DNA from: Longimicrobiales bacterium
GTDB lineage: Bacteria; Gemmatimonadota; Gemmatimonadetes; Longimicrobiales; RSA9
Assembly (NCBI GenBank): GCA_035513575.1
Contig: DATKBW010000049.1
Coordinates: 39,790-103,789, forward strand
Reading direction: 5' to 3'
Length of the DNA stretch: 64,000 nt
A model generated the notes under the pieces. The model saw only the letters and a program-made list of their open reading frames with translations. It searched no databases and was not told the DNA's origin. Shown piece after piece: positions 5,415-43,404 of this stretch. Made by a program: the position numbers and the translations under genes. How positions within the stretch are numbered: the stretch's first letter is position 1; every line of letters starts with the position of its first letter.

Positions 5415-5609
5415 CGGGCCGGCGGGCGTGGGGAAATCCACCACGCCATTTTCCTCAATAACTCCGACTGTCCCGCACCCTCCGGAAGTGGATATTGAAC
5501 GCGGGTCGGGGTCCGCGGCGCGCGGGTAGGGGCTTCGCCGGAGAGTCGCCGCCGGGCCCCGATTCCACTTCACTTCCGGTGAAGTGTCCTGAGCGGTCGG
5601 GAGGTGAAC

Positions 5610-6605: not shown

Positions 6606-6646
6606 CCGGCATCGCCGGGCCCGGCGGCGGCCGTTAGCTTTCCGCC

Positions 6647-7312: not shown

Positions 7313-7561
7313 AATACGACAGCCGCCATCAGGAAGACCCAGCTCAGGACGTCCACGTCCGCACGTCCTGGATCTGCACGAACGCGGTCACGGCCTGCGG
7401 CAGGGCGGCGCGCAGCCACAGGCGGGTCCGCATCGTCGTGGACGCCACGGAGGCGTCGGTATCGAACCAGTCCATGGACCGGAACTCGAAGCGCGGCCTC
7501 CCCCCTTCAGGACCATTCCAGCCATCACTTCCCCCGGAGGGCGGGCGGGTCGTGACCCGCC

Positions 7562-9103: not shown

Positions 9104-9112
9104 GACGTTCTC

Positions 9113-9577: not shown

Positions 9578-9674
9578 TCCCACCTCCTCCCCTCGTCCGG
9601 CCTCGACCGTTGCGACCGGACCTCGTCACCCTATGCCGGGCGAGCTACCGCGGCCAGTCGGGAGATCCCCCATC

Positions 9675-11108: not shown

Positions 11109-11354
11109 GCGTGCCTCCGGTCGGGGGTTTCCCCCCAAGCTGATCCCCCGCTCCGCACCGGGCAACCGCCTCGCTGTCCGCATCCGGAACGGCGCATCCC
11201 GGCTCCGCACCTTCCCGTGCCCCGCCGTCGACCGCGCCAATTCCCCGCAAGTGCCTGGGATGCGCGGACGTCGACACTCCTCGTCACGCGTGGCACGCTC
11301 CGTTCGTTCAGCGTACGTGGATTTTCGTGACCCGCCACACCGGAGAGCCCCGAC

Positions 11355-11798
11355 ATGCGACGCCGCGCCGCTGCCTCAATGCTCGCCATCCCCCTCTTCA
11401 TCTTCGACGCCTGGGGCGCCGAAGCCGGTCCCCCTTCCACCGACGAGATCGCCGTGCGCGCGGTGGTGCAGGGGTATTTCGACGGGATGATGGAGGGCAG
11501 CCCCGAGAAGCTCCGTGGGGCCTTCCATCCCGAAGCCTATCTGATCGGGCAGGGCCGGACCGGCCAGATCACCCGCATCCCCTTCGAGCGCTGGTGCGCG
11601 GGGATGAGCCGGGCCATGGAGAATCCGAAGGCGTATCGGAACGAGATCGCGGCCGTCGACATCTCCGGAAACGCCGCCATGGTGAAGACGGTCCTCACGT
11701 GGCCGACGGTGAAGTACGTGGACTACCTGTCGCTCCTGAAGGACGGAGAAGGGAACTGGCAGATCGTGAACAAGATCTGGGACGCATCACGCCCGTGA
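11355..11798 (+). CDS. NTF2-like (putative lumazine-binding / SnoaL-like) small secreted protein
   Basis: 147 aa with a signal peptide. AVVQGYFDGMMEGSPEKLRGAFHPEA...VDYLSLLKDGEGNWQIVNK is typical of the NTF2-like lumazine_bd_2 family (from memory). Confidence 0.6.
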   Translation: MRRRAAASMLAIPLFIFDAWGAEAGPPSTDEIAVRAVVQGYFDGMMEGSPEKLRGAFHPEAYLIGQGRTGQITRIPFERWCAGMSRAMENPKAYRNEIAAVDISGNAAMVKTVLTWPTVKYVDYLSLLKDGEGNWQIVNKIWDASRP

Positions 11799-11876
11799 GG
11801 GCCTCGTCGGTTCACTCTCTATCGCTCACGACGGCGAACTCGGCGTCGGCACTCGGCACCGCCGCGCGCCGTCCAA

Positions 11877-13649
11877 TCACTGGCCGAGGGCGTCCCGCAC
11901 GCGGGCGGACAACTGGTCCGGCGTGTAGGGTTTGGGGAGGAAGTTCCGTCCGTTCTCCGGGACCCCGTCGAGGGCGAGCATCTGCTCCGCGTAGCCGGAT
12001 GTGAGAAGGACCCGGATGCCCGGCCGTATCCTTTTCACGCGCTCCACGACTTCATCCCCCGTTAGGTCCGGCATGACCGCATCACAGAACAGCAGGTGGA
12101 TGTCCGTGGGATGTTCGCGCGCGATGCGCACGGCCTCCCGGCCCCGGCTCGCCGTGAGCACGCTGTAGCCGCGGCGCTCCAGGACCTTCCGGGCGAGCGA
12201 CAGCACCGCTTCCTCGTCCTCCGCCACCAGGACCGTCCCGGTCCCGCTCGCGCCCGACGCGACCACGACCGCGGCCTTCTCCACCGCTTCGACTTCCTGC
12301 TGGGAGCGCGGGAGGTAGACCATGAAGGTCGTCCCGAGCCCCGGGTCGGTTTCCACCCAGATGTAGCCCCGGGCCTGCTTCACGATGCCGTACGCCGTGG
12401 AGAGGCCCAGGCCGGTGCCGACGCCGGGCGGCTTCGTCGTGAAGAACGGCTCGAAGATGTGGCGCGCGACCGACGGCTCCATGCCGCTGCCGGTGTCCGA
12501 GACCATCAGGAGGGTGTAGGGGCCCGGTATCACGCGGTACGGGTAGGCGGCGGCCTGGGCCTCCGAGATGGTTTCGTCGCTGGTCCGGATCACGATGCGG
12601 CCGACCCCGGGGATCGCGTCCCGTGCGTTCACCACCAGGTTCATCAGCACCTGCTCGACCTGGCCGGGATCCGCGAGCACGGTGCCGAGCCGGGGCGCGA
12701 GGACGGTTTCGAGCTCGATCGTCTCCCCGATCATCCGACGGAGCAGCCTCTCCATCTCCTGCACCAGCGCGTTCAGGTCCAGCGGGCGCGGCTGGACAAT
12801 GCTCTGCCGGCTGAAGGCCAGCAGCTGGCGGGTCAGCGCGGCGGCGCGATCCGAGGATCGGGCGATCTCCCCCAGGTCCTCTCGCAGCTCCTCCCCGCAG
12901 GCGGGGTCCGCCAGGAGGAGCTCCGTGTGCCCCTTGATCGCCGTCAGCAGGTTGTTGAAGTCGTGCGCCACACCGCCCGCGAGCCGCCCCACCGCCTCCA
13001 TCTTCTGCGCCTGCCGCAGCTGCTCCTCCAGCCGCTCACGCTCCCGCTCCGCTTCCTTCTTCTGCGTCACGTCCCCGATCACCGCCATAATGCCTTCGAT
13101 CAGTCCCGCGCGGTCCCGCACCGGCGCCGCGGACACACTGACGTCCAGCACCCGCCCGTCCTTCGTGAGCCGCCTCGATTCCACGCCCGTGAGAGACTCT
13201 CCATCGAGCACGCGCCGCCGCATCGCCGAGAACGCTTCCGCGCCCGAGACCGGAACGCTCGGGTACACGCCGCCGAGCACTTCCCCCGCGCTCCACCCGA
13301 ATACCCGCTCCGCGGCCTGGTTCCAGAGCGTGATCCGGCCCTCCTGGTCTCCCGCGATGATCGGCAGGGGCGAGGCGTCGATCAGCGCGTGCAGACGGCC
13401 TCGCGTCTCCACCAGCTTCGCTTCGGCCTCACGGAGGCAGCCCAGCGCGTCCCATGCGACGGCCGCGCCGTAAACCAGCAGCACGAGCCCCACGAAGCCG
13501 GTCGCCCAGAGGAGCACCCCTTCGGCGGCGCTGTACGGTGCGTCCACCAGGAGAAACACCAGGACGGCGTGGACCAGGAACAGGTTGCACAGGGCGATGA
13601 GCAGCAGGAGCGCGGTCTGAGGCGTCAGGACGCGCTGCGAGAGGCGCAT
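11877..13649 (-). CDS. Hybrid sensor histidine kinase (TM-PAS-HisKA-HATPase-receiver)
   Basis: N-terminal TM helices, PAS (ITLWNQAAERVFGW), H-box VAHDFNNLL, ATPase G-boxes (DTGSGM, GTGLGLS), and a C-terminal receiver (VLVAEDEE...LLFCDAVMPDLTG). Confidence 0.92.
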   Translation of the reverse strand: MRLSQRVLTPQTALLLLIALCNLFLVHAVLVFLLVDAPYSAAEGVLLWATGFVGLVLLVYGAAVAWDALGCLREAEAKLVETRGRLHALIDASPLPIIAGDQEGRITLWNQAAERVFGWSAGEVLGGVYPSVPVSGAEAFSAMRRRVLDGESLTGVESRRLTKDGRVLDVSVSAAPVRDRAGLIEGIMAVIGDVTQKKEAERERERLEEQLRQAQKMEAVGRLAGGVAHDFNNLLTAIKGHTELLLADPACGEELREDLGEIARSSDRAAALTRQLLAFSRQSIVQPRPLDLNALVQEMERLLRRMIGETIELETVLAPRLGTVLADPGQVEQVLMNLVVNARDAIPGVGRIVIRTSDETISEAQAAAYPYRVIPGPYTLLMVSDTGSGMEPSVARHIFEPFFTTKPPGVGTGLGLSTAYGIVKQARGYIWVETDPGLGTTFMVYLPRSQQEVEAVEKAAVVVASGASGTGTVLVAEDEEAVLSLARKVLERRGYSVLTASRGREAVRIAREHPTDIHLLFCDAVMPDLTGDEVVERVKRIRPGIRVLLTSGYAEQMLALDGVPENGRNFLPKPYTPDQLSARVRDALGQ

Positions 13650-13740
13650 CAGGGGCCATGCCCCGCGCTATAGGTGCGCATTCCCCTCAAGCTTCATTAG
13701 CCCCGGCCGGCGGAAAAGAACGGACCCCTGCACTTATTCG

Positions 13741-13771
13741 ATGCCGCTCGGAGCGAAAAGCTTACAGAAAA
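13741..13771. repeat. Copy 1 of a 31-nt intergenic motif ATGCCGCTCGGA(G/C)CGAAAAGCTTACAG(A/G)AAA
   Basis: Near-identical to 38075-38105 (29/31 by hand alignment). Visible in the ORF track as MPLGAKSLQK versus MPLGPKSLQE, and on the other strand as CKLFAPSGI versus CKLFGPSGI. Confidence 0.8.
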
Positions 13772-13839
13772 ATTGGCGCCGCTGCCGGCAAGCGTCGCCG
13801 GGGTCGCCGTTGTCGGGGGGTTCCTTTAGCTTGCGGGCA

Positions 13840-16800
13840 ATGGCAGAAACACCCGCCCCGGCGGTGCTCCGGTCCCTCCGGACCGCCACGGCGCAGCACC
13901 CGCTGGACCGCAAGCTCCTCCTGTGCAGGACCATCGGCGAGGGGCGCGAGCTCCTGCGGGCCCTGGTCTCCGGTGGCGAGTCCTGGCTCGCGTGGGACAT
14001 CAGCACGCCGCGCCGGCTGGCTCTCGAGCTCGTGGGCCCCGACCTGGCGGCCGAAGACCTCGCCCTCGCTGACGACTTCGACCAGGAGGCCGCCGTGGAG
14101 TGGGCCCTCCACGAGGCCCTCCTCGACGCGCCCTCGTCGCCCCTTGCCCGCCTCGCCGAGATGCCCGGGTTCCGGGAGGCCGTCGCGGGTGCGGTCCGCG
14201 AGCTCGGCCTGGCGGGGGTCGAGGGTGCGCGGCTGCGGCGGTCCGCCGCATCGAACCCGGCGCTCCGCGACCTGCTCGCCGAGGTCCTCGAAGGCCAGCG
14301 GCGGTGGCTCGCCGAAGCCGGTCTCGTGGCGGTCGCCGACGTCCTCGAGCGGGCGGCGGCGCGGGTGGACAGGGACGGGGCGGCTACGGCCCGGGCCGAC
14401 CTTCTCCATCTCCTGCCGGGGCTTTCCACCGCCGGCGCCACGGGCCGCCTCGTGGGGGCGCTCCGGCGCGCCGGAGCCCGCGTGCTGGAGACGGACCCGG
14501 TGGCCGTGCCGGTGCCCGCCGGCGTGCTCTGGGAGGCCGTCGCGGAGCCCGCGCCGCTGACGGGTCTGCTCGGGGACGAGCCGGCCCGCGCGGCCGGCTC
14601 GGAGCCGCTCGAGCTCTTCGCCGCGTCCGGCCCGGCAGAGGAAGTCCGCGAGGTGCTGCGCCGGGTGCTGGCGGCCGGTCTGTCGTGGGACGAGGTGGAG
14701 ATCATCGCGACGGACCCGGTCGTGTACGGGGGCGCGCTGCACGCGCTGGGGCAGCGCCTCGAGGTGCCCATCAGCTTCGCGGTCGGGCTGCCGGTGGAGC
14801 GCACGCGGACCGGGCGTGCCGCGGCCGCGTACTTCCGGTGGATCCGGGAGGGCTACCCGGCCTCGGAGATCCGGCGCCTCCTGGAGGCCGAGGACCTCCG
14901 GCCGCCGGGGTACACCCGTTCCCTGACGGGTCTGGCGCGCCGGCTGCGGGGGCTGGGGGTCGGGTGGGGCCACGGCCGGTATCTCCCCGCCCTGGACCGC
15001 GCCGACGCGGCGCGCAACCGGCCCCGGCGGAACGAATCGGAGGCCGAGTGGGCGGAACGCGTCGCCCGGGACCGCGAGGAGCTGAGGGCGCTCCGGTCCC
15101 TGCTCGAGCCGCTGATCGCCAGCACGCCGGCCGTGGACCTGGACGACCCGGCCGCCCGGGTGTCGCCGGCGGCCATCGCGGCCGGTCTCCGCCGGTTCCT
15201 CGAGCTCGTCCCCACGGCGGATGCGCCGTCCGCCACGGCCCGGGATCGCTTCATCGGCATCGCCGATCGGATCGCCGCGCGACTCACCCGGGAGATGTCA
15301 CCGGCGGCGGCGCTGGCTGCGGTCCGGCGGCACCTCCGGATCCGCGTTCCCGCACCGGACCGCGAGGGTGCGGCGCCCTGGGTCTCGTCCGGGGGACACA
15401 TCCACCTCAGCGATGTGGAGCACGGCGGGCTCACCGGCCGGAGGGTGACCTTCGTCGTGGGCCTCGATGCCGAGCGCTTCCCGGGCGCCGGGCTCCAGGA
15501 CCCGCTGCTCCTGGACTCGCAGCGCCGGGATCTGGACCCGGTCGCGCTGCCCACGTCCGCCGACCGCATCGCCGCCAGGCGCTTCGCCCTGGCCGCCGCC
15601 CTCGCCCGCCTCCGCGGCCGGGTCACCCTCTCCTACAGCGCGTGGGACCCCGTCGAGGCGCGGCACGTCGCGCCCTCGCCCGTCATGCTCCACGCCTTCC
15701 GGGCGGCCGCCGCCGACCCCGCCGCGTCCTTCGAGGACATGGCCGCCGCGCTCGGGCAGCCCGCCTCCGCCATCCCCCGGGCCGGCAACCTCGACGACGC
15801 CGACGTCTGGTTTTCCGCGCTCCATCGCGACGGCATCCTCCGGGACGGGACCGCCGCGGTTCGACAGGCCTTCCCCGCCCTCGCCGCGGGCACCGACGCC
15901 ATGGCGGCGCTCGCCGGTGACCAGGCCACGCCGCACCACGGGAAGCTCCGCCCCCGCCCCGGGCTGGACCCGCGCGACAGCCCGGACCTGATCCTTTCCG
16001 CCAGCGGCCTGGAAGACCTCGGCACCTGCGCTCTCCGGTACTTCTTCAAGTACGTCCTCCGCGTGCGCCCGCCGGACGACCCCGAGCCGGACCCCGACCG
16101 CTGGCTCGATCCGCTTCGCCGGGGGAGCCTCCTCCACGCGGTGTTCGAGCGCACGCTGCGGGAGGCGCGGGAACGCGGGGTGCGCGCGGGAGCGACGGAG
16201 TTCGAGGAGCACGCGCTGGGCGTCCTGGCGGCGGAGGCCGCCATGCTGCGCCGGGAAGTCCCGGTGCCGGGGGAGGCGGTCCTCGCGCGAGAGATGGTCG
16301 TCCTGCGGGAGGACGTGCGGTCGTTCGTCGCCATGGTGGAGGGGGTGGACGAGCGGTGGGAAGCGCTTGAGCTACGGTTCGGGCTCGCGGACGACCCGCC
16401 CGCGGAGCTCCGGCTGAAGGGGGGAACGGTCCGGCTCCGCGGCGCCATCGACCGGGTGGACCGGAGTCCGGACGGGGGGCTGGTCGTCGTCGACTACAAG
16501 ACCGGGTCGACGACGCGCCACGAGCGGAGCAAGGGGCAGGGTCTGTTCCACGGCGGGCGTCGGCTCCAGAACGTGGTCTACACGGCGGCCGCCGAAGCCA
16601 TCCTCCAGGACCGGGTCGAGCGCATGGAATACCACTTCCCGACTCGCGCCGGCCGCAACGAGGTCATCGGCTACAGCCGGGCGGAGACGCGCCGCGGCCT
16701 CGGGCTCCTCTCCCGGCTTCTCGACATGGTCCGCGCCGGCCGATTCCTGCCGACACCGCAGGGCGACGACTGCACGTTCTGCGATTTCCAGGCGATCTGC

Positions 16801-34774: not shown

Positions 34775-36439
34775 ATGGCGACCGATCTCTTCCGCAGCAT
34801 CCGCGCTCCGCGGGGCACCGGGATCTCCTGCAAGGGGTGGCAGCAGGAGGCGGCGCTGCGGATGCTGATGAACAACCTCGATCCGGAGGTGGCCGAGCGG
34901 CCGGAGGACCTCGTCGTCTATGGCGGTACGGGGCGCGCGGCGCGGAGCTGGGAAGCGTTCGATGCGATCGTCCGTACGCTGCGGGACCTGGAGAACGACG
35001 AGACGCTCCTGGTGCAGTCGGGGAAGCCGGTGGGGGTGTTCCGGACGCACGCGTACGCTCCCCGTGTGCTGATCGCGAACAGCAACCTGGTGGGGCGCTG
35101 GGCGACCTGGGAGCATTTCCGTGAGCTCGAGCGCCAGGGGCTCATGATGTACGGCCAGATGACGGCCGGCTCCTGGATCTACATCGGGACCCAGGGGATC
35201 CTCCAGGGGACCTACGAGACGTTCGGAGCGGTCGCCCGCCAGGAGTTCGGCGGATCGCTGAAGGGCCGCTGGGTCCTCACCGGCGGCATGGGCGGGATGG
35301 GCGGCGCGCAGCCCCTCGCCGCCACCATGAACGACGGGGCGATCCTGTGCGTGGAGGTCGACCCCGATCGGATCGAGCGGCGGCTCCGCACCGGGTACTG
35401 TGACCGCATGACCCGTGACCTGGACGAGGCGCTGCGCTGGGTGACCGGGGCCTCCCGCGCGGGAGAGGCGCTGAGCGTCGGGCTGGCGGGGAACTGCGCC
35501 GAAGTGCTCCCGGAGATCGTGCGTCGCGGCCTGGTCCCCGACGTGCTGACGGACCAGACGTCCGCCCACGACGCGCTCCATGGCTACGTCCCGGCGGGGC
35601 TGTCCCTCGAGGAGGCCGACGCGCTGCGGCAGCGCGACCCGGCGGAGTACCAGCGGCGATCGATGGAGAGCATGGCCACGCACTGCCGCGCCATGGTCGA
35701 GCTGATGCGCCGCGGCGCCGTGACGTTCGATTACGGAAACAATCTCCGCGGCCAGGCGCTCGATGCCGGCTATGACGAGGCGTTTGCTTTCCCCGGCTTC
35801 GTCCCGGCCTATGTCCGGCCGCTCTTCTGCGAAGGGAAGGGGCCCTTCCGCTGGGCCGCGCTGTCCGGTGACCCGGCGGACATCCACCGCACGGACGACC
35901 TGGTCCTGGAGCTGTTCCCCGAGGACGACCACCTGCGCCGGTGGATCACCCGGGCCCGGGACAGGGTGCGGTTCCAGGGGCTCCCCAGTCGCATCTGCTG
36001 GCTCGGCCTCGGCGCCCGCGCCCGGTTCGGGATCGCCCTCAACGACCTGGTGGCGAGCGGCGAGATCAGGGCCCCCATCGTGATCGGCCGCGATCACCTG
36101 GACACGGGGTCCGTCGCGTCGCCCTTCCGCGAAACCGAGGCGATGAAGGACGGGAGCGACGCCGTCGCCGACTGGCCCATCCTGAACGCCCTCCTGAATA
36201 CGGCCAGCGGGGCCAGCTGGGTGAGCTTCCATCACGGGGGGGGCGTCGGGATCGGCAACTCCCTGCACGCCGGCCAGGTCATCGTCGCCGACGGGACGCC
36301 CGAGATGCGTGAGCGGCTCGAGCGCGTGCTGACCAACGATCCGGGGATCGGCGTCGCCCGGCACGCCGACGCGGGCTACGACGCCGCGCTGGAGACCGCG
36401 CGGCGCGAGGGCGTGCGCCTGCCCATGCGGGAGCACTGA
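34775..36439 (+). CDS. hutU: Urocanate hydratase
   Basis: 554 aa. [34 protein letters not shown]; near full-length match to the HutU pattern. Confidence 0.95.
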
Positions 36440-36583
36440 CCGGCGTGGCCGGACCCGCGCCGCGGAGCCCGCCCCGTCCCGTTCCGGTTGACGCCGCCCG
36501 ACATCCCGGGCGACGTTGTCGCCGGTACCCTGCACGGACGCCGGCCCCCGCGCAGACCTGTGAAACGCCGACCAGGAACCGGA

Positions 36584-37240
36584 ATGACGACCGACGGATA
36601 CGAATACGACGCGCCCGAGTCCCACCCCTTCCCGACGGACCCGGACATCGAGCCGGCGGAAGAAGAAGAGAGCCCGCGGCCGACGGCGAGCCGATGGACG
36701 GACAGCATTCGCAACCGCCTGTTCCGCGCCCGGACCCTGATCATCAGCGGCGAGGTGAACCAGAAGCTGGCTTCGGAGGTGATGGGGCAGGTGCTGGCGA
36801 TGTCGGCGGAGTCGGACGAGCCCATCACGATCTTCATCAACTCCCAGGGCGGGCACGTCGAATCCGGAGACACCATCCACGACATCATCCGCTTCATCCG
36901 CTCGCCCGTGCACATGGTGGGCACGGGCTGGGTCGCCAGCGCGGGGGCGCTGATCTACGTGGCCGTCCCGCGGGAGCGGCGTTTTTCGCTGCCCAACACG
37001 CGATTCCTCCTCCACCAGCCGGCCGGCGGGACCCGCGGTACCGCATCGGACGTGGAGATCGAAGCGCGCGAGATCCTGAAGATGAGGGAGCGGTTGAACC
37101 GCGTGTTCTCCGAGCAGACGGGGCAGCCGCTGGAGCGGATCGTGGAGGACACCCACCGCAACTTCTGGCTGGGCGCGAACGAGGCGGTGGAGTACGGTCT
37201 GGTCGGCAAGATCATCCAGCATGCCGACGAGGTGAAGTAG
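36584..37240 (+). CDS. clpP: ClpP-family ATP-dependent protease proteolytic subunit with an acidic N-terminal extension
   Basis: INSQGGHVESG, catalytic Ser in GWVASAGA, His in FLLHQP. C-terminus AVEYGLVGKIIQHADEVK. Start uncertain (36488 or 36584). Confidence 0.85.
   Translation: MTTDGYEYDAPESHPFPTDPDIEPAEEEESPRPTASRWTDSIRNRLFRARTLIISGEVNQKLASEVMGQVLAMSAESDEPITIFINSQGGHVESGDTIHDIIRFIRSPVHMVGTGWVASAGALIYVAVPRERRFSLPNTRFLLHQPAGGTRGTASDVEIEAREILKMRERLNRVFSEQTGQPLERIVEDTHRNFWLGANEAVEYGLVGKIIQHADEVK
37186..37240 (+). repeat. Left copy of the 55-nt imperfect direct repeat (functional clpP 3' end)
   Basis: GGTGGAGTACGGTCTGGTCGGCAAGATCATCCAGCATGCCGACGAGGTGAAGTAG. 48/55 identical to 41196-41250 by hand alignment. 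Confidence 0.85.
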
Positions 37241-37250
37241 GGCGCCAGAG

Positions 37251-38020
37251 CTATAGGATCCCGGACCGGCGTAATGCATCGGCCAACATCCATTGCCAGC
37301 CGAGTCGGGAGCGGATGTAGCTGGGCCGTGCTCCGATGATCTCATTCAGGCGATCGCTCATGGAGGGAAGGCCGGAGAACCCGAGGGTAAAGGCGAGCTC
37401 AGCGAGCGGGCTTTTGGGATGCCGCTGGATTTCAAGTGCCACTCCGACCACGCGCAGCGCCTGGTACCACGTTTTTGGGGCCCGAGCCCGGCGCCAATGA
37501 ATGCCCGTTGCCAACGCGCGAAGGAAATTCGTCGGGCTCGGGCTAGCGCTGCCATGCTCCGGAACACGGCAGCATTTCGGGCGAAACATTTGAGCGCCGC
37601 AGCAGCATCGGGCGTCACATCGAACCCACGCCGGTGCGCCCACAGCACCGCGGCTTCTGGCCAGTCGCTGGCGTCAGTGAGCTGTCGCCTCAGCACTTCC
37701 GCGCCTGGTTCGCAAGCCCAGACGACGGTTCGCACCCCCAGTGGACGGGCGGCCGAGGCTAGAAGGGTGCCGGCCCTCCGGCCCACACAATCCACCCAGA
37801 GCGCGACGGGCGCGTTCACCACGCGTCGAGCCACTTGATCGACAACTTCCGCGACCTCCGCCGCAGAACAACCACGAGGAGGGCGGAGCGCGACGACGTT
37901 GCCTCGCGTCAGGTAGGGGGGCAGGCCACCAAGATCCACCGGACCGGTGAACCGCCCGTATGCGTCCGGATCGGCGTCCTTCACGTCGAGATCGAGCGTG
38001 TAAATCGGCAACTGGCGCAT
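37251..38020 (-). pseudogene. AraC/XylS-family HTH regulator with an unknown N-terminal domain, interrupted by a frameshift at a C4A5 run
   Basis: ORF 37358..38020 carries the N-domain and first HTH (MAALARARRISFARWQRAFIGAGLGP). ORF 37251..37643, in another frame, carries the rest (KTWYQALRVVGVALEIQ...LAELAFTLGFSGLPSMSDRLNEIIGARPSYIR). The frames meet at CCCCAAAAA (37472-37480); one extra base would fuse them. Confidence 0.6.
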
Positions 38021-38074
38021 TCCGCATCAAACCGGGGGAAGAGTCTCCCTGTGCTGGAACGCCTCGCTGAACAG

Positions 38075-38105
38075 ATGCCGCTCGGACCGAAAAGCTTACA
38101 GGAAA
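38075..38105. repeat. Copy 2 of the 31-nt intergenic motif (see 13741-13771)
   Basis: ATGCCGCTCGGACCGAAAAGCTTACAGGAAA, located in the divergent promoter region between the AraC-like gene and the propeller cassette. Confidence 0.8.
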
Positions 38106-38311
38106 TATTCGTGGGGCGCGTCATAACCGGGGAATCCCAAGCCCCGCCACGAGGCAAGCCTCCAGAGGTGAAGCGCGTCAGAGGGGGCGGTTCGTGACCA
38201 CACCGGAACGATGCTCGCCGCCGGAGACGCCGAGCGGGCGCGGAGAAGCTGCTCAAGTTTCATGTCGTCAACGCCGCTTCGGCCGTTCTACAATTATTCG
38301 CCTCGGGATGA

Positions 38312-39403
38312 ATGATCGCACATTACCAGCAGAGCAAGCGCAATCAGGTTTTAGCGGCGTTAGGACGGTATCCCGTGCTCTCCTCCTCCAGATCGAACGG
38401 GTTCAGGCAATTGCTTGCCGTGACACTCGTCACGGCAAATTGTGGAACGTCTCCGGGTTCAGCTTCGGAACGGGGGGGCGGAAGCGCCACGTTCCCGGAT
38501 CACCTTCATGTCGTGGGCGAGGTCATCCTGGAAGAACGCCCGAACGTCATTAACGTGCAGCCTTCGGTGCGGGCCGATCCGCACGGAGGGTTCCTCGTGG
38601 CCGATAAGCGCGAAAGCCAGGTCAGACGCTACCACCTCGATGGGAGCCTCGACTTCGCTTTTGGTAGTCCCGGCCAAGGACCTGAAGAGTTCGTCGGCGC
38701 TGTCGTCAGCGTACGCCTACCCGATCAGTCCATCCTAGTAGTCGATCGCACCAGCAAGATTGTAACCCTCGATCCCTCTGGTAATCGGGTAACGCGTCAG
38801 TGGCAGCTCCCGCTCACGAATATCGTGGACGCTGACGTGATCGATGATTCTCGGATCCTTTTTTCAGTCCGCGCATCCGCATCGCGCCCGCTGCTGCACA
38901 TCTGGAATATCAACAAGGGGGAATTAGAGCGACATTTCTTCATTCCTCCGCAGAATTCTCAAATCCGGGCGGCGTCGATTATCGGCGGATGGGCGTTCGC
39001 GAGCATTCAGAACGATACGATCTGGAGTTTCTTTTCGGCCGTGGACTCCGTTTACGCGTTTTCTACCGAGGGTGTTCGCCTCATGGCCGTCCGGATCCCA
39101 TTCGAGCGCTTTGACATCGCGCGTCCACCACGTCGTGTTTTCGGGATCCGCTTCGGATCGTTCGACGAATGGATCGGATCATTCCACCTGATTTCCTCCA
39201 TTGCTGCATTGGAGGACCTCCTGCTCATCCAGTATGGTCGCTACGGCAGGAATCCCCAAGTTTCGCTGTTGGGGATGACCACCGCTGGCGCGCGCGTGTT
39301 CGAACATTTGCTTGTCGTCACGCCTTACCCCCCCATAACGGCCTACTTCCAAGCACGTGAGACCTCGGAGCCGAATCGATGGATCGCCGCCTCCATCCGG
39401 TAG
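38312..39403 (+). CDS. 6-bladed beta-propeller protein (probable lipoprotein), island copy
   Basis: 363 aa. GSPGQGPEEF motif (GxGPGEF-type hallmark) and repeated blade-like beta segments. Hydrophobic LLAVTLVTANC near the N-terminus. An alternative GTG start at 38375 would give a standard-length lipoprotein signal. Confidence 0.6.
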   Translation: MIAHYQQSKRNQVLAALGRYPVLSSSRSNGFRQLLAVTLVTANCGTSPGSASERGGGSATFPDHLHVVGEVILEERPNVINVQPSVRADPHGGFLVADKRESQVRRYHLDGSLDFAFGSPGQGPEEFVGAVVSVRLPDQSILVVDRTSKIVTLDPSGNRVTRQWQLPLTNIVDADVIDDSRILFSVRASASRPLLHIWNINKGELERHFFIPPQNSQIRAASIIGGWAFASIQNDTIWSFFSAVDSVYAFSTEGVRLMAVRIPFERFDIARPPRRVFGIRFGSFDEWIGSFHLISSIAALEDLLLIQYGRYGRNPQVSLLGMTTAGARVFEHLLVVTPYPPITAYFQARETSEPNRWIAASIR

Positions 39404-39864
39404 GAGTGCTAGTCGTCGCTGTAGTCGCAGGGATTTCCGGTGGCGCCTTTGGTCGTATGGTCTCCGATCAGCCGGGTACTCCGATTGAGGAATACATGTC
39501 GATCGATTCGAGCAGGGGAAGCAGTGAACGCCTGCTCCGGCTCGTTTGGACCGTCGGAAGCACCAGCGCGCTCGGGTGCCAGAACTGGCAGCCCCTGATG
39601 AGGAGATTGCTTTGGCATCATGGGGATGAGCTGGAGATCGTCGCGGTTGTGGGCGAAAGAGATTCTGCCGCAGTCCGCGCGTTCCTCCGCACAGAGCGGT
39701 TGGGAAACGTGCGCATTGCTGGACAGCCCGCCCGATACCGCGACAGGTCTTCCCGCTTCCACCTGCTCTACCGTGACTCAGTGGTGGTGTCCGCAGGCGC
39801 CTCCCGGCGCGGTATGGCGGCGCTCGAGCACGTCGCCAAGGTGGTAATGAACGAGGATTACTGA
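39379..39864 (+). CDS. Membrane-anchored thioredoxin-fold-like protein lacking a CxxC motif (single Cys, A-L-G-C)
   Basis: 161 aa. TM helix VGVLVVAVVAGISGGAF. LLRLVWTVGSTSALGCQNWQPLMRRLL...ELEIVAVVGERDSAAVRAFL resembles the TlpA/redoxin beta-alpha-beta core, but only the second Cys position is kept. GGAG SD upstream; 25-nt overlap with the propeller gene. Fold assignment is tentative. Confidence 0.4.
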   Translation: MDRRLHPVGVLVVAVVAGISGGAFGRMVSDQPGTPIEEYMSIDSSRGSSERLLRLVWTVGSTSALGCQNWQPLMRRLLWHHGDELEIVAVVGERDSAAVRAFLRTERLGNVRIAGQPARYRDRSSRFHLLYRDSVVVSAGASRRGMAALEHVAKVVMNEDY

Positions 39865-39894
39865 GCGAGGTCACCAAGACGCATGTTTCACTTC

Positions 39895-39904
39895 AAGGAG
39901 GAGG
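39895..39904 (+). promoter_or_regulatory. Strong Shine-Dalgarno (AAGGAGGAGG) for the Cys-rich peptide gene
   Basis: 8-nt AT-rich spacer (TTATTAAA) to the ATG at 39913. Lies inside the longer 39883 ORF, which argues for the 39913 start. Confidence 0.75.
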
Positions 39905-39912
39905 TTATTAAA

Positions 39913-40125
39913 ATGTCTCGACTGCGCAAGTTGCTCATTGGCGTGCTGGCTCTCGCGGGACTTGGCTTCGCCGGAGCAGTCGTCACCCCTGGGGCCTTGT
40001 TCGGGGATATGGACCCGGCTGATTGGTGCCAGCAGGTCCTGGATCCCAATTGTACCGAGCACTGCTACTATGAATGTGACATTACAAAGGAGTGTCAGTT
40101 CGAAAACTGCTGCGGGTGCGGTTGA
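39913..40125 (+). CDS. 70-aa signal/leader-bearing cysteine-rich peptide (8 Cys in the last 32 residues)
   Basis: MSRLRKLLIGVLALAGLGFAGAVVTPGALFGDMDPADWCQQVLDPNCTEHCYYECDITKECQFENCCGCG. Basic n-region plus hydrophobic h-region, then an acidic Cys-rich tail. Excellent SD. The next gene starts 5 nt after the stop. Confidence 0.65.
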   Translation: MSRLRKLLIGVLALAGLGFAGAVVTPGALFGDMDPADWCQQVLDPNCTEHCYYECDITKECQFENCCGCG

Positions 40126-40129
40126 ACCA

Positions 40130-40948
40130 ATGCGAAGGAGCGGGAGGTCTGGGATTCTGAAGACGCTTCCAGCGCTCCCGCTCCGTCACAGGCGCCCTGC
40201 GCTCTCCGTCCTTCTCGGACTGCAGGTGATCTACGCACCAGTCGCCGCGCAGTCGATCCGGGGTGCGGTCGTGGACGACGAGTCATCGCGGCCCATCACT
40301 GGATCGCTGGTGCAGGTGTTCGACCAGGCGGGTGCCCGCGTTTCCGCAAGCCAAACGGGATCCGACGGGCGATTTCATGTTCGGCTGCCGAATGCGGGAT
40401 CGTATGCGTTGTCCGCGGAACGGCTCGGGTACGGGTGGGCGGTGGCGCGCTCGCTCCACGTGCGAGTTGGCGAAGTACTAGAGCTGGAGCTGCGGCTGCC
40501 CCGGCTCCCCATTCCACTCGAACCGCTCACCGTTCGTGTGGAGCGCCGGCTCGCACACCTGGAGCGCGTGGGCTTCTACCAGCGGGAGCGGATGGGCATC
40601 GGTCGGTTCATTACCGCAGAGGACATTGAGGCGCGCCGCCCGCTCATCCTTACGGACGTCCTTCGCGGCGAGCCATCCGTCCGGGTCCTGAATACTCCCG
40701 ACGGTGCGGGTCACGTCATTGCGTTTCGCGGCGCACACACGATGTACCTGGCCATGGGCCATGACGCCTGCCTCCCAGTCGTGGTGCTTGACGGCACCCG
40801 ACTCGCCACGGCCGGGGACGTCAACCTTGTCCACCCGGAAAATGTCGCTGCCATCGAGCTCTACCCAAGCGGGAATGGCGCTCCTCCGCAGTTTGGCGGT
40901 CTGGGGGCGCCCTGCGGGGTCATCATGATCTGGACAAAGCGAGGCTGA
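40130..40948 (+). CDS. Carboxypeptidase-regulatory-like domain + TonB-receptor plug-like domain protein (no barrel)
   Basis: 272 aa from the internal ATG. Signal-like LSVLLGLQVIYAPVAAQS, then SIRGAVVDDESSRPITGSLVQVFD...SDGRFHVRLPNAGSYALSAERLGY (CarbopepD_reg pattern). C-terminal ITAEDIEARRPLILTDVLRGEPSVRV...VVLDG...ENVAAIELYP (plug-like). Confidence 0.7.
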   Translation: MRRSGRSGILKTLPALPLRHRRPALSVLLGLQVIYAPVAAQSIRGAVVDDESSRPITGSLVQVFDQAGARVSASQTGSDGRFHVRLPNAGSYALSAERLGYGWAVARSLHVRVGEVLELELRLPRLPIPLEPLTVRVERRLAHLERVGFYQRERMGIGRFITAEDIEARRPLILTDVLRGEPSVRVLNTPDGAGHVIAFRGAHTMYLAMGHDACLPVVVLDGTRLATAGDVNLVHPENVAAIELYPSGNGAPPQFGGLGAPCGVIMIWTKRG

Positions 40949-41195
40949 ACCTTCAGACGTGTCCCGTTTGTCGGGCGACTAACATTCTGCACCTCCCCCT
41001 TCCTGGGCGTCCCGCTGCGCGTTCCGGCCCGATCCAGATCTGTGTCTGTGACCACTCCAAGGAGAACGATGGACCCGCTGCACGCCCCTCAGAACACTCG
41101 TTAACCTCATCAGCGTCATGCTCATCTCGGCGGCATGCCCCCGGCTCTCCGTCGGGCATGTGGGACGCCGAGGTCCGGACCGGGGATTTTTCCGG

Positions 41196-41250
41196 GGTGG
41201 AGGACGGCCTCGTCGGCAAGATCATCCAACACGTCCACGAGGTGAAGTAG
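41196..41250 (+). repeat. Right copy of the direct repeat: displaced clpP 3'-end remnant
   Basis: GGTGGAGGACGGCCTCGTCGGCAAGATCATCCAACACGTCCACGAGGTGAAGTAG encodes ...VEDGLVGKIIQHVHEVK*. There is no ClpP body upstream of it. Confidence 0.8.
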
Positions 41251-41498
41251 CGCGGGACCCTTGCCAACCGGCCAGCGGGATTGCTAGCGTTCCCATACCA
41301 GCGGTGACGCGGGCCGCGAGAAAGCCCACGCCCACCCGGCCCACCGGCGAGCGCCGGGGGTCCCGCCCTCTCTCAGAGGGCACGCGAGGTCGGAACGGCG
41401 CGTCACAGGCGGTCGACGCGGGCCCCCGGACCGGGAGCCGCGCCGAAACGACGACAGCGTCGAAGGAGGCGACGAATGCCACCGGGCAGTCGAGGAAG

Positions 41499-41538
41499 GC
41501 CCGGGACGGAGCAGGTGTGACCGTCCCGGGCTTTTCCC
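41499..41538 (+). terminator. Rho-independent terminator (plus-strand orientation)
   Basis: 11-bp perfect stem GCCCGGGACGG / CCGTCCCGGGC with 11-nt loop, followed by TTTTCCC. Located about 250 nt downstream of the clpP remnant stop. Confidence 0.65.
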
Positions 41539-41577
41539 ACGTCCTGGCGCGATGCCACCGGCCTGTCCGCCCTGCCG

Positions 41578-43245
41578 CTAGACGTCCCCGGTCCGATCCG
41601 CGACCTGGCGCTGCACCTCCTCCAGCATTCGCCGACCCCTCTCCATCAGTGTGGTCGCCCGTTCCTCGACCTCGGCACGGAAGGCATGGTCCTCGATGTC
41701 GGCCAGGTTGATCAGGACGTTGCGGTGTGCGCCGTAGAGGCACGCCTCGAGCGCTTTCGCCCCCACGTCCAGGTCTGAGCGAGAGGAGTACTGGCCCACG
41801 CGCGCGAGCTCGAGCATGGGGTCCCAGGCGCGGTCAGCCGTCTCCATGGCCCGGAGCGGGACCAGCGTCGCCTTCTTGAGGCCCTCCTCCATCGCCGTCC
41901 GCCGGGCGACCTTCTGCTCCTCCGTCTCCCGCGGCATCCGGATGGCCTTCACGTAATCCGCGAAGGCGTCGGTGTCGGCGTCGACCGCGCGCAGCAGCGC
42001 CTCCTGGACCTCCACCAGCGCCGGGAGGTTCGCCCGCACGGTGGCGTCGAGGTGATCGTACTTCCGGCGGCCGTAAGTGAGCCATCCCACCATGGCCCCG
42101 AGGCCGGCGCCCAGGGCGCCCACGAGCGCGGCGACCGAGCCGCCCCCCGGCGTCGAGGTCCGTGCGCCGACCGCCTCCACGAAGTCGCGGACGGACTTCC
42201 GGATGAGCGGCCCGTCGGCGTCCTGGTCGATCATGTACTCGATGATCTTCTCCTCCGGGCGGAAGGCGTGGACGGAGGAGAGCCCCAGCCGATCGATGAC
42301 GAGCCGGACCTTCTGCCGCTCGTCGAGGATGAACAGCCCCTCCCGCTCGATGTAGAAATCGGCCGCCTGGAGGACCGCCTCCAGGGGGATCAGCCCCACG
42401 ACCTCGCTGCCCGCGACGCCGACGCCCAGCTCGGCCGCGTCCTTCCGGATCGCCTCGTAGACGGCGTGGAGGGGCGTGACGCGGTAGTTGTCCAGGTTCA
42501 TGGAGACCTGGGCGAGGCCGAACTCCTCGAGCTCCCAGCCGATCCCCTTCACCGCGTCGAAATACCCGGGCTCCCGGATGGTCTCGCCCCCGGGGCCCTT
42601 CACGGTCCGGCCCTGCTCCCGGATGTTCAGCGCCAGGCGGTGCGCCTGGTTACGGGTGCCCAGGATGTTGACGTTGTAGGCGATCAGGAAGAAGCGGACG
42701 CCGGTCACGGTCGCGCCGGACCGGGCGACGAAGGTCGCCGGGCCGAAGTCGGGCGCCCACTCGGGCTGGCCGATCCGGTCCGCGAGGCCCTCGTACTCGC
42801 CCTGCCGGATCTGCCGGAGCGCCTTCCGATGCTCCAGCGCCTGGGCCTCCTCGTACAGGTAGATCGGGACCCCGAGCTCCTCGCCGACGCGTGCGCCGAA
42901 CCGCCGGGCGCAGTCGATGCACTCCTCCATGCTCACGCCGGAAACGGGGATGAAGGGCACCACGTCCACCGCTCCGAGCCGCGGGTGCTCGCCGCTGTGC
43001 CGGGTCATGTCGATCAGCCGGTACGCCGTTGCCGCCGCCCTGAAGGCCGCTTCCACGACATCGGCGGGCGCGCCCACGAAGGTCATCACCGTCCGGTTCG
43101 TGGATTTCCCCGGGTCCACGTCCAGGAGCTTGACTCCGGGTGCGCCGCGGATGCTCTCGGCGATCGCGTCCAGCAGCGCCGGGTCCCGGCCTTCGGAGAA
43201 GTTTGGAACACACTCGACCAGCCGCATCGACCGCCGTCCGTTCAT
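41578..43245 (-). CDS. ftcD: Bifunctional glutamate formiminotransferase-cyclodeaminase
   Basis: N-terminal LVECVPNFSEGRD formiminotransferase domain. C-terminal cyclodeaminase domain (TSTPGGGSVAALVGALGAGLGAMV). Start is either 43245 or 43227. Confidence 0.88.
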   Translation of the reverse strand: MNGRRSMRLVECVPNFSEGRDPALLDAIAESIRGAPGVKLLDVDPGKSTNRTVMTFVGAPADVVEAAFRAAATAYRLIDMTRHSGEHPRLGAVDVVPFIPVSGVSMEECIDCARRFGARVGEELGVPIYLYEEAQALEHRKALRQIRQGEYEGLADRIGQPEWAPDFGPATFVARSGATVTGVRFFLIAYNVNILGTRNQAHRLALNIREQGRTVKGPGGETIREPGYFDAVKGIGWELEEFGLAQVSMNLDNYRVTPLHAVYEAIRKDAAELGVGVAGSEVVGLIPLEAVLQAADFYIEREGLFILDERQKVRLVIDRLGLSSVHAFRPEEKIIEYMIDQDADGPLIRKSVRDFVEAVGARTSTPGGGSVAALVGALGAGLGAMVGWLTYGRRKYDHLDATVRANLPALVEVQEALLRAVDADTDAFADYVKAIRMPRETEEQKVARRTAMEEGLKKATLVPLRAMETADRAWDPMLELARVGQYSSRSDLDVGAKALEACLYGAHRNVLINLADIEDHAFRAEVEERATTLMERGRRMLEEVQRQVADRTGDV

Positions 43246-43404
43246 GATGGATGGGGGAACCCGTGTCCCCGACTCTGCCCGGCACGCCCCCATCCGTCAA
43301 GGCCGTGGGAATCCGGGCCGCCGTCCAACCATACGCCCCCGGCCTCCGTCCAACGCAGGGGAGACTCATTCGAACAATCGAACGCATCCACAGGAAGGAG
43401 ACCC

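What the first reader, a model, noticed from the sequence alone, without database searches (positions are those of the whole stretch)
37186..41250. About 4 kb insertion flanked by an imperfect direct repeat of the clpP 3' end
- The last 55 nt of clpP (37186-37240, encoding ...EYGLVGKIIQHADEVK*) recur at 41196-41250 (...EDGLVGKIIQHVHEVK*). They are 48/55 identical by hand alignment and both end in TAG.
- The duplication also shows in the antisense track ORFs (YFTSSACWMILPTRP versus YFTSWTCWMILPTRP).
- Nothing ClpP-like precedes the second copy.
- Between the copies lie the AraC-like pseudogene and the Cys-peptide cassette.
- Hand GC counts of three 60-nt lines at 38.3, 38.9 and 40.0 kb give 50-52%, versus 70% in clpP.
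- This is the classic footprint of an element that integrated into the 3' end of a gene while supplying a replacement 3' end. The 13% divergence argues against a recent local duplication.
- No integrase, excisionase or transposase remains, so the islet is probably fixed or decayed.
Basis: seen in the sequence. Interest (0 to 1): 0.6.

Follow-up and report, generated by a model that had tools for sequence, protein, structure and literature searches.

The report
Repeat-flanked foreign islet behind clpP
About 4 kb of imported, GC-poor DNA carrying a five-gene cassette for exported proteins was spliced into the tail of the protease gene clpP of an uncultured Gemmatimonadota bacterium, leaving a 59-base copy of the gene's end as a scar. 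This is an ordinary genomic-island footprint, notable because related cassettes in other genomes show similar scars without any recombinase gene.

Summary
- **Repeat:** a 59-nt direct repeat (37186-37244 and 41196-41254, 51/59 identical) brackets the insert. No shuffle exceeded 39/59, and the genome holds only these two copies.
- **Composition:** the enclosed 3.95 kb has 62% GC against 71.8 ± 2% genome-wide. Its GC3 is 0.65-0.74 against 0.91-0.93 in the flanking genes.
- **Empty sites:** three relatives, including the only other species of the genus, have clpP and ftcD stop codons 7 to about 90 nt apart.
- **Cargo:** one complete module of an AraC-like regulator (frameshifted), an NHL-like propeller, a 161-aa protein, an exported Cys-rich peptide and a CarboxypepD_reg/Plug protein. 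No recombinase gene is present.

The best reading is a single-crossover (Campbell-type) integration at the clpP tail that supplied a replacement tail, followed by loss or absence of the recombinase (a CIME-like islet). This mechanism is inferred, not shown.

- The 327 nt between the right repeat and ftcD are not an old clpP 3' UTR. They hold a conserved, structured, Rfam-less small RNA gene that is absent from the empty sites.
- Homologous cassettes sit at other loci in other genomes. Six of about 23 are flanked by duplicated ends of a neighbouring host gene, with no integrase next to the cassette.

The parts
36584..37240 (+). clpP (218 aa from the ATG at 36584), the target gene; intact, with a host-like GC3 of 0.91
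   Evidence: Pfam CLP_protease E=4e-61. 85% aa identity to the ortholog of the sister species G001, with conserved hutU-clpP synteny. GC3.
37186..37244 (+). Left copy of the 59-nt direct repeat: the last 17 codons plus the stop of the functional clpP, plus 4 nt
37251..38020 (-). AraC-family (HTH_18) regulator of the cassette, split by one frameshift near 37472-37480. Its natural 3' end lies 10 nt from the clpP stop.
   Evidence: HTH_18 E=1.8e-5 on the 130-aa frame. The intact 273-aa homologue of G013 aligns in two frames, residues 35-192 and 174-264. Homologous regulators sit next to the cassette in G013, G067 and G049.
38312..39403 (+). NHL-like six-bladed-propeller-type protein (363-aa ORF; a 296-aa version from 38513 is the public gene call); low GC3 of 0.67
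   Evidence: No Pfam hit at E<=0.01. The best relative among 1.84 billion representatives is 40% identical, with 1148 relatives at E<=1e-3. A relative carries NHL repeats.
39379..39864 (+). 161-aa protein of the cassette. The same position holds thioredoxin-fold proteins in some homologous cassettes.
   Evidence: No family hit here. Weak tblastn matches in G052 and G049 cassettes. AhpC/TSA/Redoxin and DsbA-like proteins occur in the G067 and G029 cassettes.
39883..40125 (+). Exported Cys-rich peptide (80-aa ORF, 9 Cys in the C-terminal 35 residues)
   Evidence: ORF list. Analogous Cys-rich small ORFs occur in the G049, G067, G055, G032 and G029 cassettes.
40130..40948 (+). 272-aa CarboxypepD_reg plus TonB Plug protein without a barrel; GC3 0.74
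   Evidence: Pfam PF13620 E=2.7e-13 and PF07715 E=7e-8. A 64%-identical native paralogue lies on contig C1 with GC3 0.95.
40949..41195 (.). 247-nt non-coding right end of the islet (GC about 0.63); no recognisable recombinase remnant
   Evidence: (ORF 40953-41267 on the minus strand has no family hit).
41196..41254 (+). Right copy of the repeat: an untranslated relic of a clpP tail (Tyr to Asp at the conserved EYGL motif)
41257..41543 (+). Independent small-RNA gene abutting the right repeat, absent from the empty sites of relatives. Putative -35 TTGCCA at 41261-41266, extended -10 near 41283-41291, RNA about 41291-41543, terminator 41499-41538.
   Evidence: Homologues at unrelated loci. The covariance model finds 13 of 73 family genomes. 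Covariation supports the fold. No Rfam family matches.
41578..43293 (-). ftcD (formiminotransferase-cyclodeaminase), the convergent right-hand neighbour
   Evidence: Pfam FTCD_N, FTCD and FTCD_C. It lies directly next to clpP in G001, G005 and a metagenome contig.

Best explanation
A foreign DNA segment of about 3.95 kb (37241-41195) entered this lineage after it split from its sister species. It was integrated at the very end of clpP.

The integration was a single reciprocal crossover (Campbell-type) between the clpP tail and a clpP-tail-like stretch of about 59 nt on a circular incoming molecule. clpP kept a complete, in-frame tail at the left junction. A second, now untranslated tail copy was left at the right junction, just upstream of a pre-existing small-RNA gene and ftcD.

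The crossover was most likely catalysed by a site-specific (tyrosine) recombinase. That recombinase was either encoded on a part of the element that has since been deleted, or acted in trans. What remains is a non-autonomous, CIME-like islet.

Its cargo is one complete regulatory-plus-structural module for exported proteins: AraC-like regulator, NHL-like propeller, 161-aa protein, Cys-rich peptide and CarboxypepD_reg/Plug protein.

Shown: the repeat, the foreign composition, the empty sites, the completeness of the module and the absence of a recombinase gene.

Inferred: the circular intermediate, the crossover within the repeat, which copy is native, and the nature of the recombinase.
For: At this locus:
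- The repeat is real, non-random and two-copy.
- The sister species G001 has hutU-clpP-7 nt-ftcD. G005 has about 90 nt between the stops and metagenome contig L071 about 45 nt. None of the islet genes is present at those sites.
- The composition is an extreme outlier for the genome.
- The two tail copies are closer to each other (48/55) than either is to the sister species' tail (42/55 each), and they share the lineage-specific ending EVK*. The incoming copy therefore mimicked this lineage's tail.
- Four of the seven coding differences are synonymous, as expected if both tails evolved as coding sequence (read).
- The left junction spares the natural 3' end of the AraC-like gene.

At homologous cassettes in other genomes:
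- G067 has three copies of the 3' roughly 400 nt of an MFS gene, separating two different islets. The tail of the functional gene is 71% identical to the others and GC-poor (0.60-0.67), while the two displaced copies are host-like. This is the picture of tandem accretion.
- G032 has a 37-nt copy of an SDR gene tail behind the cassette. The displaced copy is 36/37 identical to the empty-site relative G034. Four of the 16 G032-specific changes in the last 783 nt fall in the final 41 nt (my Poisson estimate is P about 0.01).
- G232 has two integrase genes 2.5 kb from a homologous cassette.

Published precedents:
- e14 in icd, with a 163-bp pseudo-icd' (PMC6379469).
- CIMEs and accretion of elements at the same site (PMC5704250).
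Against: - No integrase, excisionase or serine recombinase lies in or near the islet. The genome has only four PF00589 hits, all on other contigs, and no PF00239 hit.
- No integrase lies on the contigs holding the G067, G055, G049 and G013 cassettes. Several hosts with cassettes have just two tyrosine-recombinase hits, which I take to be XerC/XerD.
- No intact parent element, attP-type junction or close relative of the cargo exists in any collection searched.
- The repeats around homologous cassettes differ widely in length (37-549 nt) and in target gene. Only about 6 of 23 loci have them.
- G038 carries the G032 cassette without the tail copy.
- Polarised with G001, derived changes are split 3:3 between the copies, so nothing identifies a native copy here.
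Confidence: 0.5

Rival explanations
1. Homology-facilitated illegitimate recombination. Linear DNA from a close relative that already carried the islet behind its clpP recombined homologously inside clpP. Its other end was joined illegitimately 55 nt before the recipient's clpP stop. The functional tail would then be the donor's and the right copy the recipient's.
For: - No recombinase is needed, which fits the absence of integrases at this and most homologous cassettes.
- It explains why repeat length and target differ from locus to locus, and why only some loci have repeats.
- The two tails look like orthologous tails of closely related lineages.
Against: - It only moves the question of the first insertion to a donor.
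- In G032 the foreign-type changes begin where the repeat begins (positions 743-773; the repeat starts at 736 of 783), with no excess upstream. A circle-by-chromosome crossover predicts this, but a free homologous crossover point would match it only by coincidence.
- clpP shows no GC3 or identity break upstream of the repeat.
Confidence: 0.2
2. Recombinase-independent insertion with in-situ duplication of the target, for example by template switching during repair at the convergent gene ends. Both tail copies came from this chromosome and were identical at first. They then diverged, the right one neutrally.
For: - The right copy carries a radical change at the conserved Tyr (Y to D), as expected for a free-drifting relic.
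- The islet lies between convergent genes, as do homologous islets in G049 and G013.
- An earlier, unchecked note of this scan proposes such a mechanism for other cassettes.
Against: - Derived changes are as frequent in the selected left copy as in the relic (3:3).
- In the G067 and G032 analogues the functional tail is the divergent or foreign one and the displaced copy is native-like, the opposite of what in-situ duplication predicts.
Confidence: 0.15
3. Assembly chimera. The 4 kb belong to another organism in the metagenome and were joined into the contig by the assembler.
For: The genome is a metagenome-assembled genome of 242 contigs with 7.6% estimated contamination.
Against: - The longest exact stretch shared by the two copies is 17 nt, too short to mislead a k-mer assembler (my reading).
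- The insert carries a lineage-specific clpP tail at exactly the place expected for a real insertion.
- It lies 37 kb or more from either end of a 176-kb contig with conserved synteny on both sides.
- Homologous cassettes show the same architecture in independent assemblies, some of them of 1-6 contigs.
Confidence: 0.03
4. The pair is the variable repeat and template repeat of a diversity-generating retroelement acting on the clpP tail.
For: An imperfect direct repeat of a gene's 3' end downstream of that gene is the hallmark layout of such elements.
Against: - The eight differences are T/G, T/C, G/C, G/A, T/C, C/T, G/C and G/C. Only one involves an adenine in the would-be template copy.
- No reverse-transcriptase domain occurs in any islet ORF.
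- clpP is a housekeeping protease, not a ligand-binding target.
Confidence: 0.01

Closest known systems
e14 element (and phage 21) integrated in the 3' end of icd of Escherichia coli
   Same: - The insertion is inside the 3' end of a housekeeping gene.
- The element supplies an alternative in-frame tail.
- A displaced, slightly different pseudo-3' end (163 bp) lies at the far end as an attL/attR pair (PMC6379469).
   Different: - e14 encodes its own integrase and excises. Here no recombinase exists in cis.
- The duplicated piece is 59 nt.
- The target is clpP and the host is Gemmatimonadota.
- Which copy is native is unresolved.
CIMEs (cis-mobilizable elements): decayed integrative elements that keep attL and attR but have lost their integration and transfer genes, and their tandem accretion with incoming elements
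   Same: - The islet is repeat-flanked and has no recombination genes.
- The homologous G067 locus, with three repeat copies and two islets, looks like accretion as described for ICE, IME and CIME tandems (PMC5704250).
   Different: - No related autonomous element using the same site was found in this genome or any collection.
- Mobilisation in trans is untested.
Homology-facilitated illegitimate recombination during natural transformation (own knowledge: described for Acinetobacter and Streptococcus pneumoniae)
   Same: It would give a donor-type gene end, then foreign DNA, then the recipient's sequence, without any recombinase.
   Different: A duplication of the recipient's gene tail is not its usual outcome. 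Competence of these bacteria is unknown.
Peptide-propeller (thioredoxin-fold) cassettes noted elsewhere in this scan as low-GC islets (e1-1150786, e1-979403, e1-2792720)
   Same: The cargo type and the islet-like composition are the same (unchecked AI notes).
   Different: Those notes concern other genomes and do not establish the insertion mechanism.

Membership tests
Site-specific integrative element inserted in a gene 3' end (e14/icd type) | [quoted passage not shown] | tested here: met
   59 nt, 51/59 identical, two copies in the genome, far above the shuffles.
Site-specific integrative element inserted in a gene 3' end (e14/icd type) | Target gene remains complete and in frame with a (replacement) tail | tested here: met
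   clpP is full length and ends ...EYGLVGKIIQHADEVK*. Pfam covers positions 7-181 of the 182-position profile.
Site-specific integrative element inserted in a gene 3' end (e14/icd type) | Empty site in related genomes | tested here: met
   G001, G005 and contig L071 have clpP next to ftcD. The empty sites also lack 41251-41577.
Site-specific integrative element inserted in a gene 3' end (e14/icd type) | Cognate integrase (and excisionase) encoded next to one att site | tested here: not met
   No recombinase domain in any islet ORF. The PF00589 hits lie only on contigs C134, C158, C229 and C143, and there is no PF00239 hit.
Site-specific integrative element inserted in a gene 3' end (e14/icd type) | Excision to a circle and restoration of attB | not testable with these tools
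No conspecific contigs exist in the metagenome collection.
CIME (decayed, cis-mobilizable integrative element) | Retains attL and attR but lacks integration and transfer genes | tested here: met
   Repeats are present and recombinase genes absent. That the repeats are functional att sites is assumed.
CIME (decayed, cis-mobilizable integrative element) | A related autonomous element with the same site specificity exists that could act in trans | tested here: not met
   There is no third copy of the repeat in the genome. No related element was found in plasmid, viral or metagenome collections.
Transposon or insertion sequence | Short identical target-site duplication, terminal inverted repeats, transposase | tested here: not met
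   The repeat is 59 nt and imperfect. There are no terminal inverted repeats at the islet ends and no transposase domain.
Diversity-generating retroelement | Template and variable repeat differing at template adenines; a reverse transcriptase nearby | tested here: not met
   One of eight mismatches involves an adenine in the downstream copy. No reverse-transcriptase domain is present.

The most novel reading that the evidence does not exclude
The AraC / NHL-propeller / thioredoxin-fold / Cys-rich-peptide cassettes of Gemmatimonadota may form a family of small mobile units without a recombinase gene. They would insert next to, or into the ends of, arbitrary host genes and duplicate 37-550 nt of that gene, by a mechanism not yet described. 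Candidates are a host-encoded recombinase, or repair-coupled insertion at convergent gene ends. The clpP islet would be one footprint of that process. Separately, the 250-nt structured RNA next to it may be a new, horizontally scattered regulatory RNA class. It has an invariant Shine-Dalgarno-like box, an AUG and Pro-Pro-Gly codons just before its terminator.
Probability: 0.2. Interest if true: 0.7.

Novelty: new member of a known kind. Interest (0 to 1): 0.42.

Why it matters
For this genome, it settles that the Cys-peptide/propeller module is recently imported cargo and not part of the hut/clpP neighbourhood. It also shows that clpP's present transcript end and the neighbouring small-RNA gene were rearranged by the event.

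More generally, it adds a clean example with an empty site in a sister species of gene-tail replacement in a phylum where mobile elements are barely described.

It also points to a testable pattern. The same cassette family appears at many unrelated loci, often GC-poor, with duplicated host-gene ends and without recombinase genes. If that pattern holds, it bears on how small secreted-protein cassettes spread among uncultured soil bacteria.

Tried and rejected
Searches that gave nothing useful:
- **Metagenome pattern scan.** An exact-pattern scan of metagenome contigs for either tail variant gave 0 hits.
- **ClpP relatives in metagenomes.** 80 loci were found, none closer than 80% identity. One more empty site turned up, but no occupied site, no second tail copy and no islet gene.
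- **Second tail copy.** None lies within 9 kb of clpP in seven relatives.
- **Donor search.** The propeller protein has only itself in the 5.8-billion word index. Its best hit is 40% identical among 1.84 billion representatives and at most 38% across 401 genomes of the class.
- **Mobile-element collections.** There was no match in plasmids or viral contigs.
- **Known RNA families.** Rfam has nothing for 36400-41800, or for the small-RNA homologues.

Ideas considered and rejected or left unused:
- A diversity-generating retroelement is rejected on the mismatch pattern and the lack of a reverse transcriptase.
- A transposon target duplication is rejected on repeat length and imperfection.
- 41251-41577 as an old clpP 3' UTR is rejected. 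It has its own conserved promoter-like boxes, and its homologues sit at unrelated loci.
- A link between the small RNA and the cassette is rejected. The two do not co-occur in other genomes.
- A shared CCGGACCGG near both islet ends, and a 7-nt GCTCCGC at the G038 cassette ends, are too short to interpret.
Full report
**1. Observation**

Over the 55 coding nt they are 48/55 identical. Both end in TAG.
- A pairwise alignment shows that identity starts abruptly at GGTGGAG and ends 4 nt after the stop.
- In 30 Markov shuffles of 36000-42500, the best 59-nt direct match had 34-39 identities, against 51 observed.
- The whole assembly has exactly these two copies. It comprises 4.14 Mb in 242 contigs, and the window lies inside a 176-kb contig.
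- The frame of the right copy is preceded by ...GMWDAEVRTGDFSG, which is not ClpP-like, and is not part of an ORF of 40 aa or more.

**2. Composition**

The stretch 37241-41195 has GC 0.62. The 4-kb windows of the genome average 0.718 (sd 0.02), and only 0.06% are as low. This is the third-lowest region of the assembly (profile).

GC3 is 0.65-0.74 for the five islet genes, against 0.91-0.93 for lon, pfk, hutU, clpP and ftcD. The 327 nt after the right copy are host-like again (GC 0.69-0.74).

**3. Empty sites**

| Genome | Arrangement | Spacing between stops |
|---|---|---|
| G001 (only other species of the genus) | hutU (90% aa), clpP (85%), convergent ftcD (80.5%) | 7 nt |
| G005 (another genus) | clpP, convergent ftcD | about 90 nt |
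| Metagenome contig JABAOG010003322.1 (L071) | hutU-clpP-ftcD | about 45 nt |

- None of these loci has any islet gene.
- Other relatives have clpP followed by other genes, and none has a second tail copy within 9 kb.
- The insertion is therefore specific to this lineage and younger than the split from G001.
- Record titles of relatives place the group in Gemmatimonadota, labelled Longimicrobiales or Gemmatimonadales.

**4. What was inserted**

The cargo is a single module:
- An AraC-type regulator on the minus strand (37251-38020).
- Divergently from it, an NHL-like propeller protein (38312-39403).
- A 161-aa protein (39379-39864).
- An exported peptide with nine cysteines (39883-40125).
- A 272-aa CarboxypepD_reg plus Plug protein without a barrel (40130-40948).

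The regulator aligns with an intact 273-aa homologue from G013 in two frames (residues 35-192 and 174-264). It is complete at both ends and broken by one frameshift, which is either decay or a homopolymer error.

The same gene set recurs at about 30% identity in G013, G049, G067, G055, G052, G032 and G029. In some of those cassettes, AhpC/TSA/Redoxin or DsbA-like thioredoxin-fold proteins accompany the propeller and the Cys-rich peptide.

The propeller protein has no close relative anywhere:
- It finds only itself in the word-indexed 5.8-billion set.
- Its best hit among 1.84 billion representatives is 40% identical.
- Its best hit in 401 genomes of the class is at most 38% identical.

No donor can therefore be named. 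The Plug protein has a 64%-identical native paralogue with GC3 0.95, which suggests a donor inside the phylum.

No recombinase was found:
- No recombinase domain occurs in any islet ORF.
- The genome's four PF00589 hits are on other contigs, and there is no serine recombinase.
- The 247-nt right end of the islet shows no recognisable remnant.

**5. The right flank is a small-RNA gene, not a clpP 3' UTR**

The 327 nt between the right copy and the ftcD stop are missing from the empty sites. They have 70-75% identical counterparts at unrelated loci in other genera.
- Seven full-length homologues share a TTGC box, a TGn-extended -10-like box about 17 nt downstream, a roughly 250-nt body and a strong terminator. 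The promoter reading is mine.
- A covariance model built from these sequences finds single full-length copies in 13 of 73 genomes and 6 of 37 genera of the family, but not in G001.
- On 13 sequences the structure has 53 pairs. 92.5% of cells are paired and 23 pairs show compensatory changes. 0 of 500 shuffles reach this, and slid controls give 36-45% paired.
- A long-range helix joins ACCAGCGCUGGCGCGGGCCG to ACGGCGCGUCAG..GCGG.
- An invariant GGAGG-N4-8-AUGCCACCGGGC lies just 5' of the terminator. The short frame opened by the AUG is not conserved beyond Met-Pro-Pro-Gly.
- The neighbours differ between genera.
- Rfam has no match for this RNA, here or in its homologues.
- Exact-pattern hits outside Gemmatimonadota do not fit the model.

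The right repeat ends 6 nt before the -35-like box, and nothing upstream of that box is conserved among homologues.

The clpP-ftcD gap of this lineage thus received two accessory inserts. The simplest order is the RNA gene first and the islet second, because the displaced tail abuts the RNA gene.

**6. Which copy is native?**

Both copies are 42/55 identical to the tail of G001, and closer to each other (48/55). They share the ending EVK*, which none of about 90 other ClpP tails has.

With G001 as outgroup:
- Three changes are derived in the left copy (GGT, CAT and Ala).
- Three are derived in the right copy (Tyr to Asp, CTC and CAA).
- One is ambiguous.
- Four of the seven coding differences are synonymous.

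This looks more like two related coding tails than like one selected tail and one drifting relic. The numbers are too small to decide.

**7. Homologous cassettes give the mechanistic clue**

Self-comparison of about 23 cassette loci found direct repeats that duplicate an end of a neighbouring host gene in six of them.

| Genome (locus) | Duplicated piece | Length and identity |
|---|---|---|
| G000 (this window) | clpP 3' end | 59 nt, 86% |
| G067 (L044) | MFS gene 3' part, three copies | about 400 nt, 71-99.75% |
| G032 (L181) | SDR gene tail | 37 nt, 35/37 |
| G055 (L042) | first 77 codons of a small gene | 232 nt, 84% |
| G029 (L191) | gene 3' end plus downstream DNA | 549 nt, 88% |
| G049 (L047) | part of a Plug-like gene | 157 and 81 nt, about 82% |

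*G067.* A 447-aa MFS gene is followed by islet 2, then a copy of its 3' roughly 400 nt, then islet 1, then another copy.
- The two displaced copies are 99.75% identical and host-like in GC.
- The tail of the functional gene is only 71% identical to them and GC-poor (0.60-0.67).
- This is the picture of a replacement tail plus tandem accretion, as described for ICE, IME and CIME tandems (PMC5704250).

*G032.* A short-chain dehydrogenase gene is followed by propeller, 174-aa protein and Cys-rich peptide, and then by a 37-nt copy (35/37) of its own tail.
- G034, 95% identical in DNA, has the empty site. G038 has the same cassette.
- The displaced copy is 36/37 identical to the native G034 tail.
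- The functional tail holds 4 of the 16 G032-specific changes of the last 783 nt within its final 41 nt, starting where the repeat starts (my Poisson estimate is P about 0.01).
- G038 lacks the tail copy, which lies in a 166-nt segment present only in G032. The duplication is therefore not an obligatory scar, or it can be lost.

*G049 and G013.* Their islets are also GC-poor, lie between convergent genes and have no flanking repeats. One is next to an IS256-like transposase fragment, named from its sequence without a domain search.

*Integrases.* Tyrosine integrases are absent from the contigs holding the G067, G055, G049 and G013 cassettes. Several hosts with cassettes have just two tyrosine-recombinase hits, which I take to be XerC/XerD. 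Only G232 has two integrase genes 2.5 kb from a cassette, together with what reads like an IS110-type fragment.

**8. Mechanism**

The architecture is a full gene with an alternative tail, then foreign DNA, then a truncated copy of the gene end. It is the product expected from a single crossover between a circular molecule that carries a gene-end mimic and the chromosome. The classic case is e14 in icd, with its 163-bp pseudo-icd' (PMC6379469).

In G032 and G067 the foreign part of the functional gene coincides with the repeated segment. This is automatic for such a crossover. It is not automatic for one-sided homologous recombination, and it is the opposite of what in-situ duplication predicts.

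With 71-86% identity and exact stretches of at most 17 nt here, RecA-type recombination is unlikely. A site-specific recombinase is the most economical catalyst, but none is linked to the cassettes.

My estimates for the competing readings are:

| Reading | Probability |
|---|---|
| Campbell-type integration, recombinase lost or acting in trans (CIME-like) | 0.5 |
| Homology-facilitated illegitimate recombination from a close relative | 0.2 |
| Recombinase-independent insertion with target duplication | 0.15 |
| Assembly chimera | 0.03 |
| Diversity-generating retroelement | 0.01 |

That the islet is a real, horizontally acquired insertion at the clpP tail I hold at about 0.95.

**9. Comparison and novelty**

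As a footprint this is a new member of a known kind: a decayed or non-autonomous integrative islet at a gene 3' end. clpP is, to my knowledge, not a described chromosomal target. A literature search returned only integrations into phage-borne Clp-protease genes.

What is less ordinary is the recurrence of the same cargo family with gene-end duplications and no recombinase. Earlier unchecked notes of this scan describe similar cargo and a similar idea in other phyla. I treat them as leads only.

**10. Limits**
- No conspecific genomes were found.
- Gene calls in the comparison loci come from my own GC3-based ORF picking.
- The survey of about 23 loci was not exhaustive.

Noticed in passing
window 41257-41543 (+): A conserved, structured small RNA of about 250 nt with its own promoter-like boxes and terminator. 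It occurs in 13 of 73 genomes and 6 of 37 genera of the family, at unrelated loci, with 23 covarying pairs and no Rfam family. It has an invariant GGAGG-N4-8-AUGCCACCGGGC (SD-like box, AUG, Pro-Pro-Gly codons) just before the terminator.
   Followed up: partly
L044 (G067:C8) 5576-15517: Two different propeller/Cys-peptide islets lie in tandem behind an MFS transporter gene, separated by three copies of the gene's 3' roughly 400 nt. Two copies are 99.75% identical and host-like. The functional gene's tail is 71% identical to them and GC-poor. No integrase lies on the contig.
   Followed up: partly
L181 (G032:C52) 9329-11468; L204 (G034); L203 (G038): Presence/absence polymorphism of a homologous cassette among species 95% identical in flanking DNA. 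G034 is empty. G038 is occupied without a tail copy. G032 is occupied with a 37-nt copy of the SDR gene tail inside an extra 166-nt segment.
   Followed up: partly
L042 (G055:C20) 7283-7514 and 9938-10169: A 232-nt direct repeat (84% identical) flanks a 2.4-kb propeller plus Cys-rich-peptide islet. The repeat is the first 77 codons of a small gene; the left copy is truncated and the right copy continues.
   Followed up: partly
window 38075-38105 and 13741-13771: A 31-nt motif ATGCCGCTCGGAnCGAAAAGCTTACAGnAAA is shared (29/31) by the islet's divergent promoter region and a native intergenic region. The genome has only two or three copies.
   Followed up: partly
window 41552-41561: A second ATGCCACCGG lies between the small-RNA terminator and the ftcD stop, repeating the invariant motif at 41476-41485. 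It may be chance.
   Followed up: no
It could be a sequencing or assembly error rather than decay.
   Followed up: partly
G000 contig C1, 30000-36739: This is the lowest-GC region of the genome (0.61). By its N-terminal sequence it holds what looks like an IS5/IS1182-type transposase gene (no domain search run). It is another candidate imported region.
   Followed up: no
L182 (G232:C78) 5475-11652: A homologous propeller gene sits 2.5 kb from two tandem integrase paralogues and what looks like an IS110-type transposase fragment (named from sequence, no domain search). This is the only cassette seen next to recombinase genes.
   Followed up: partly
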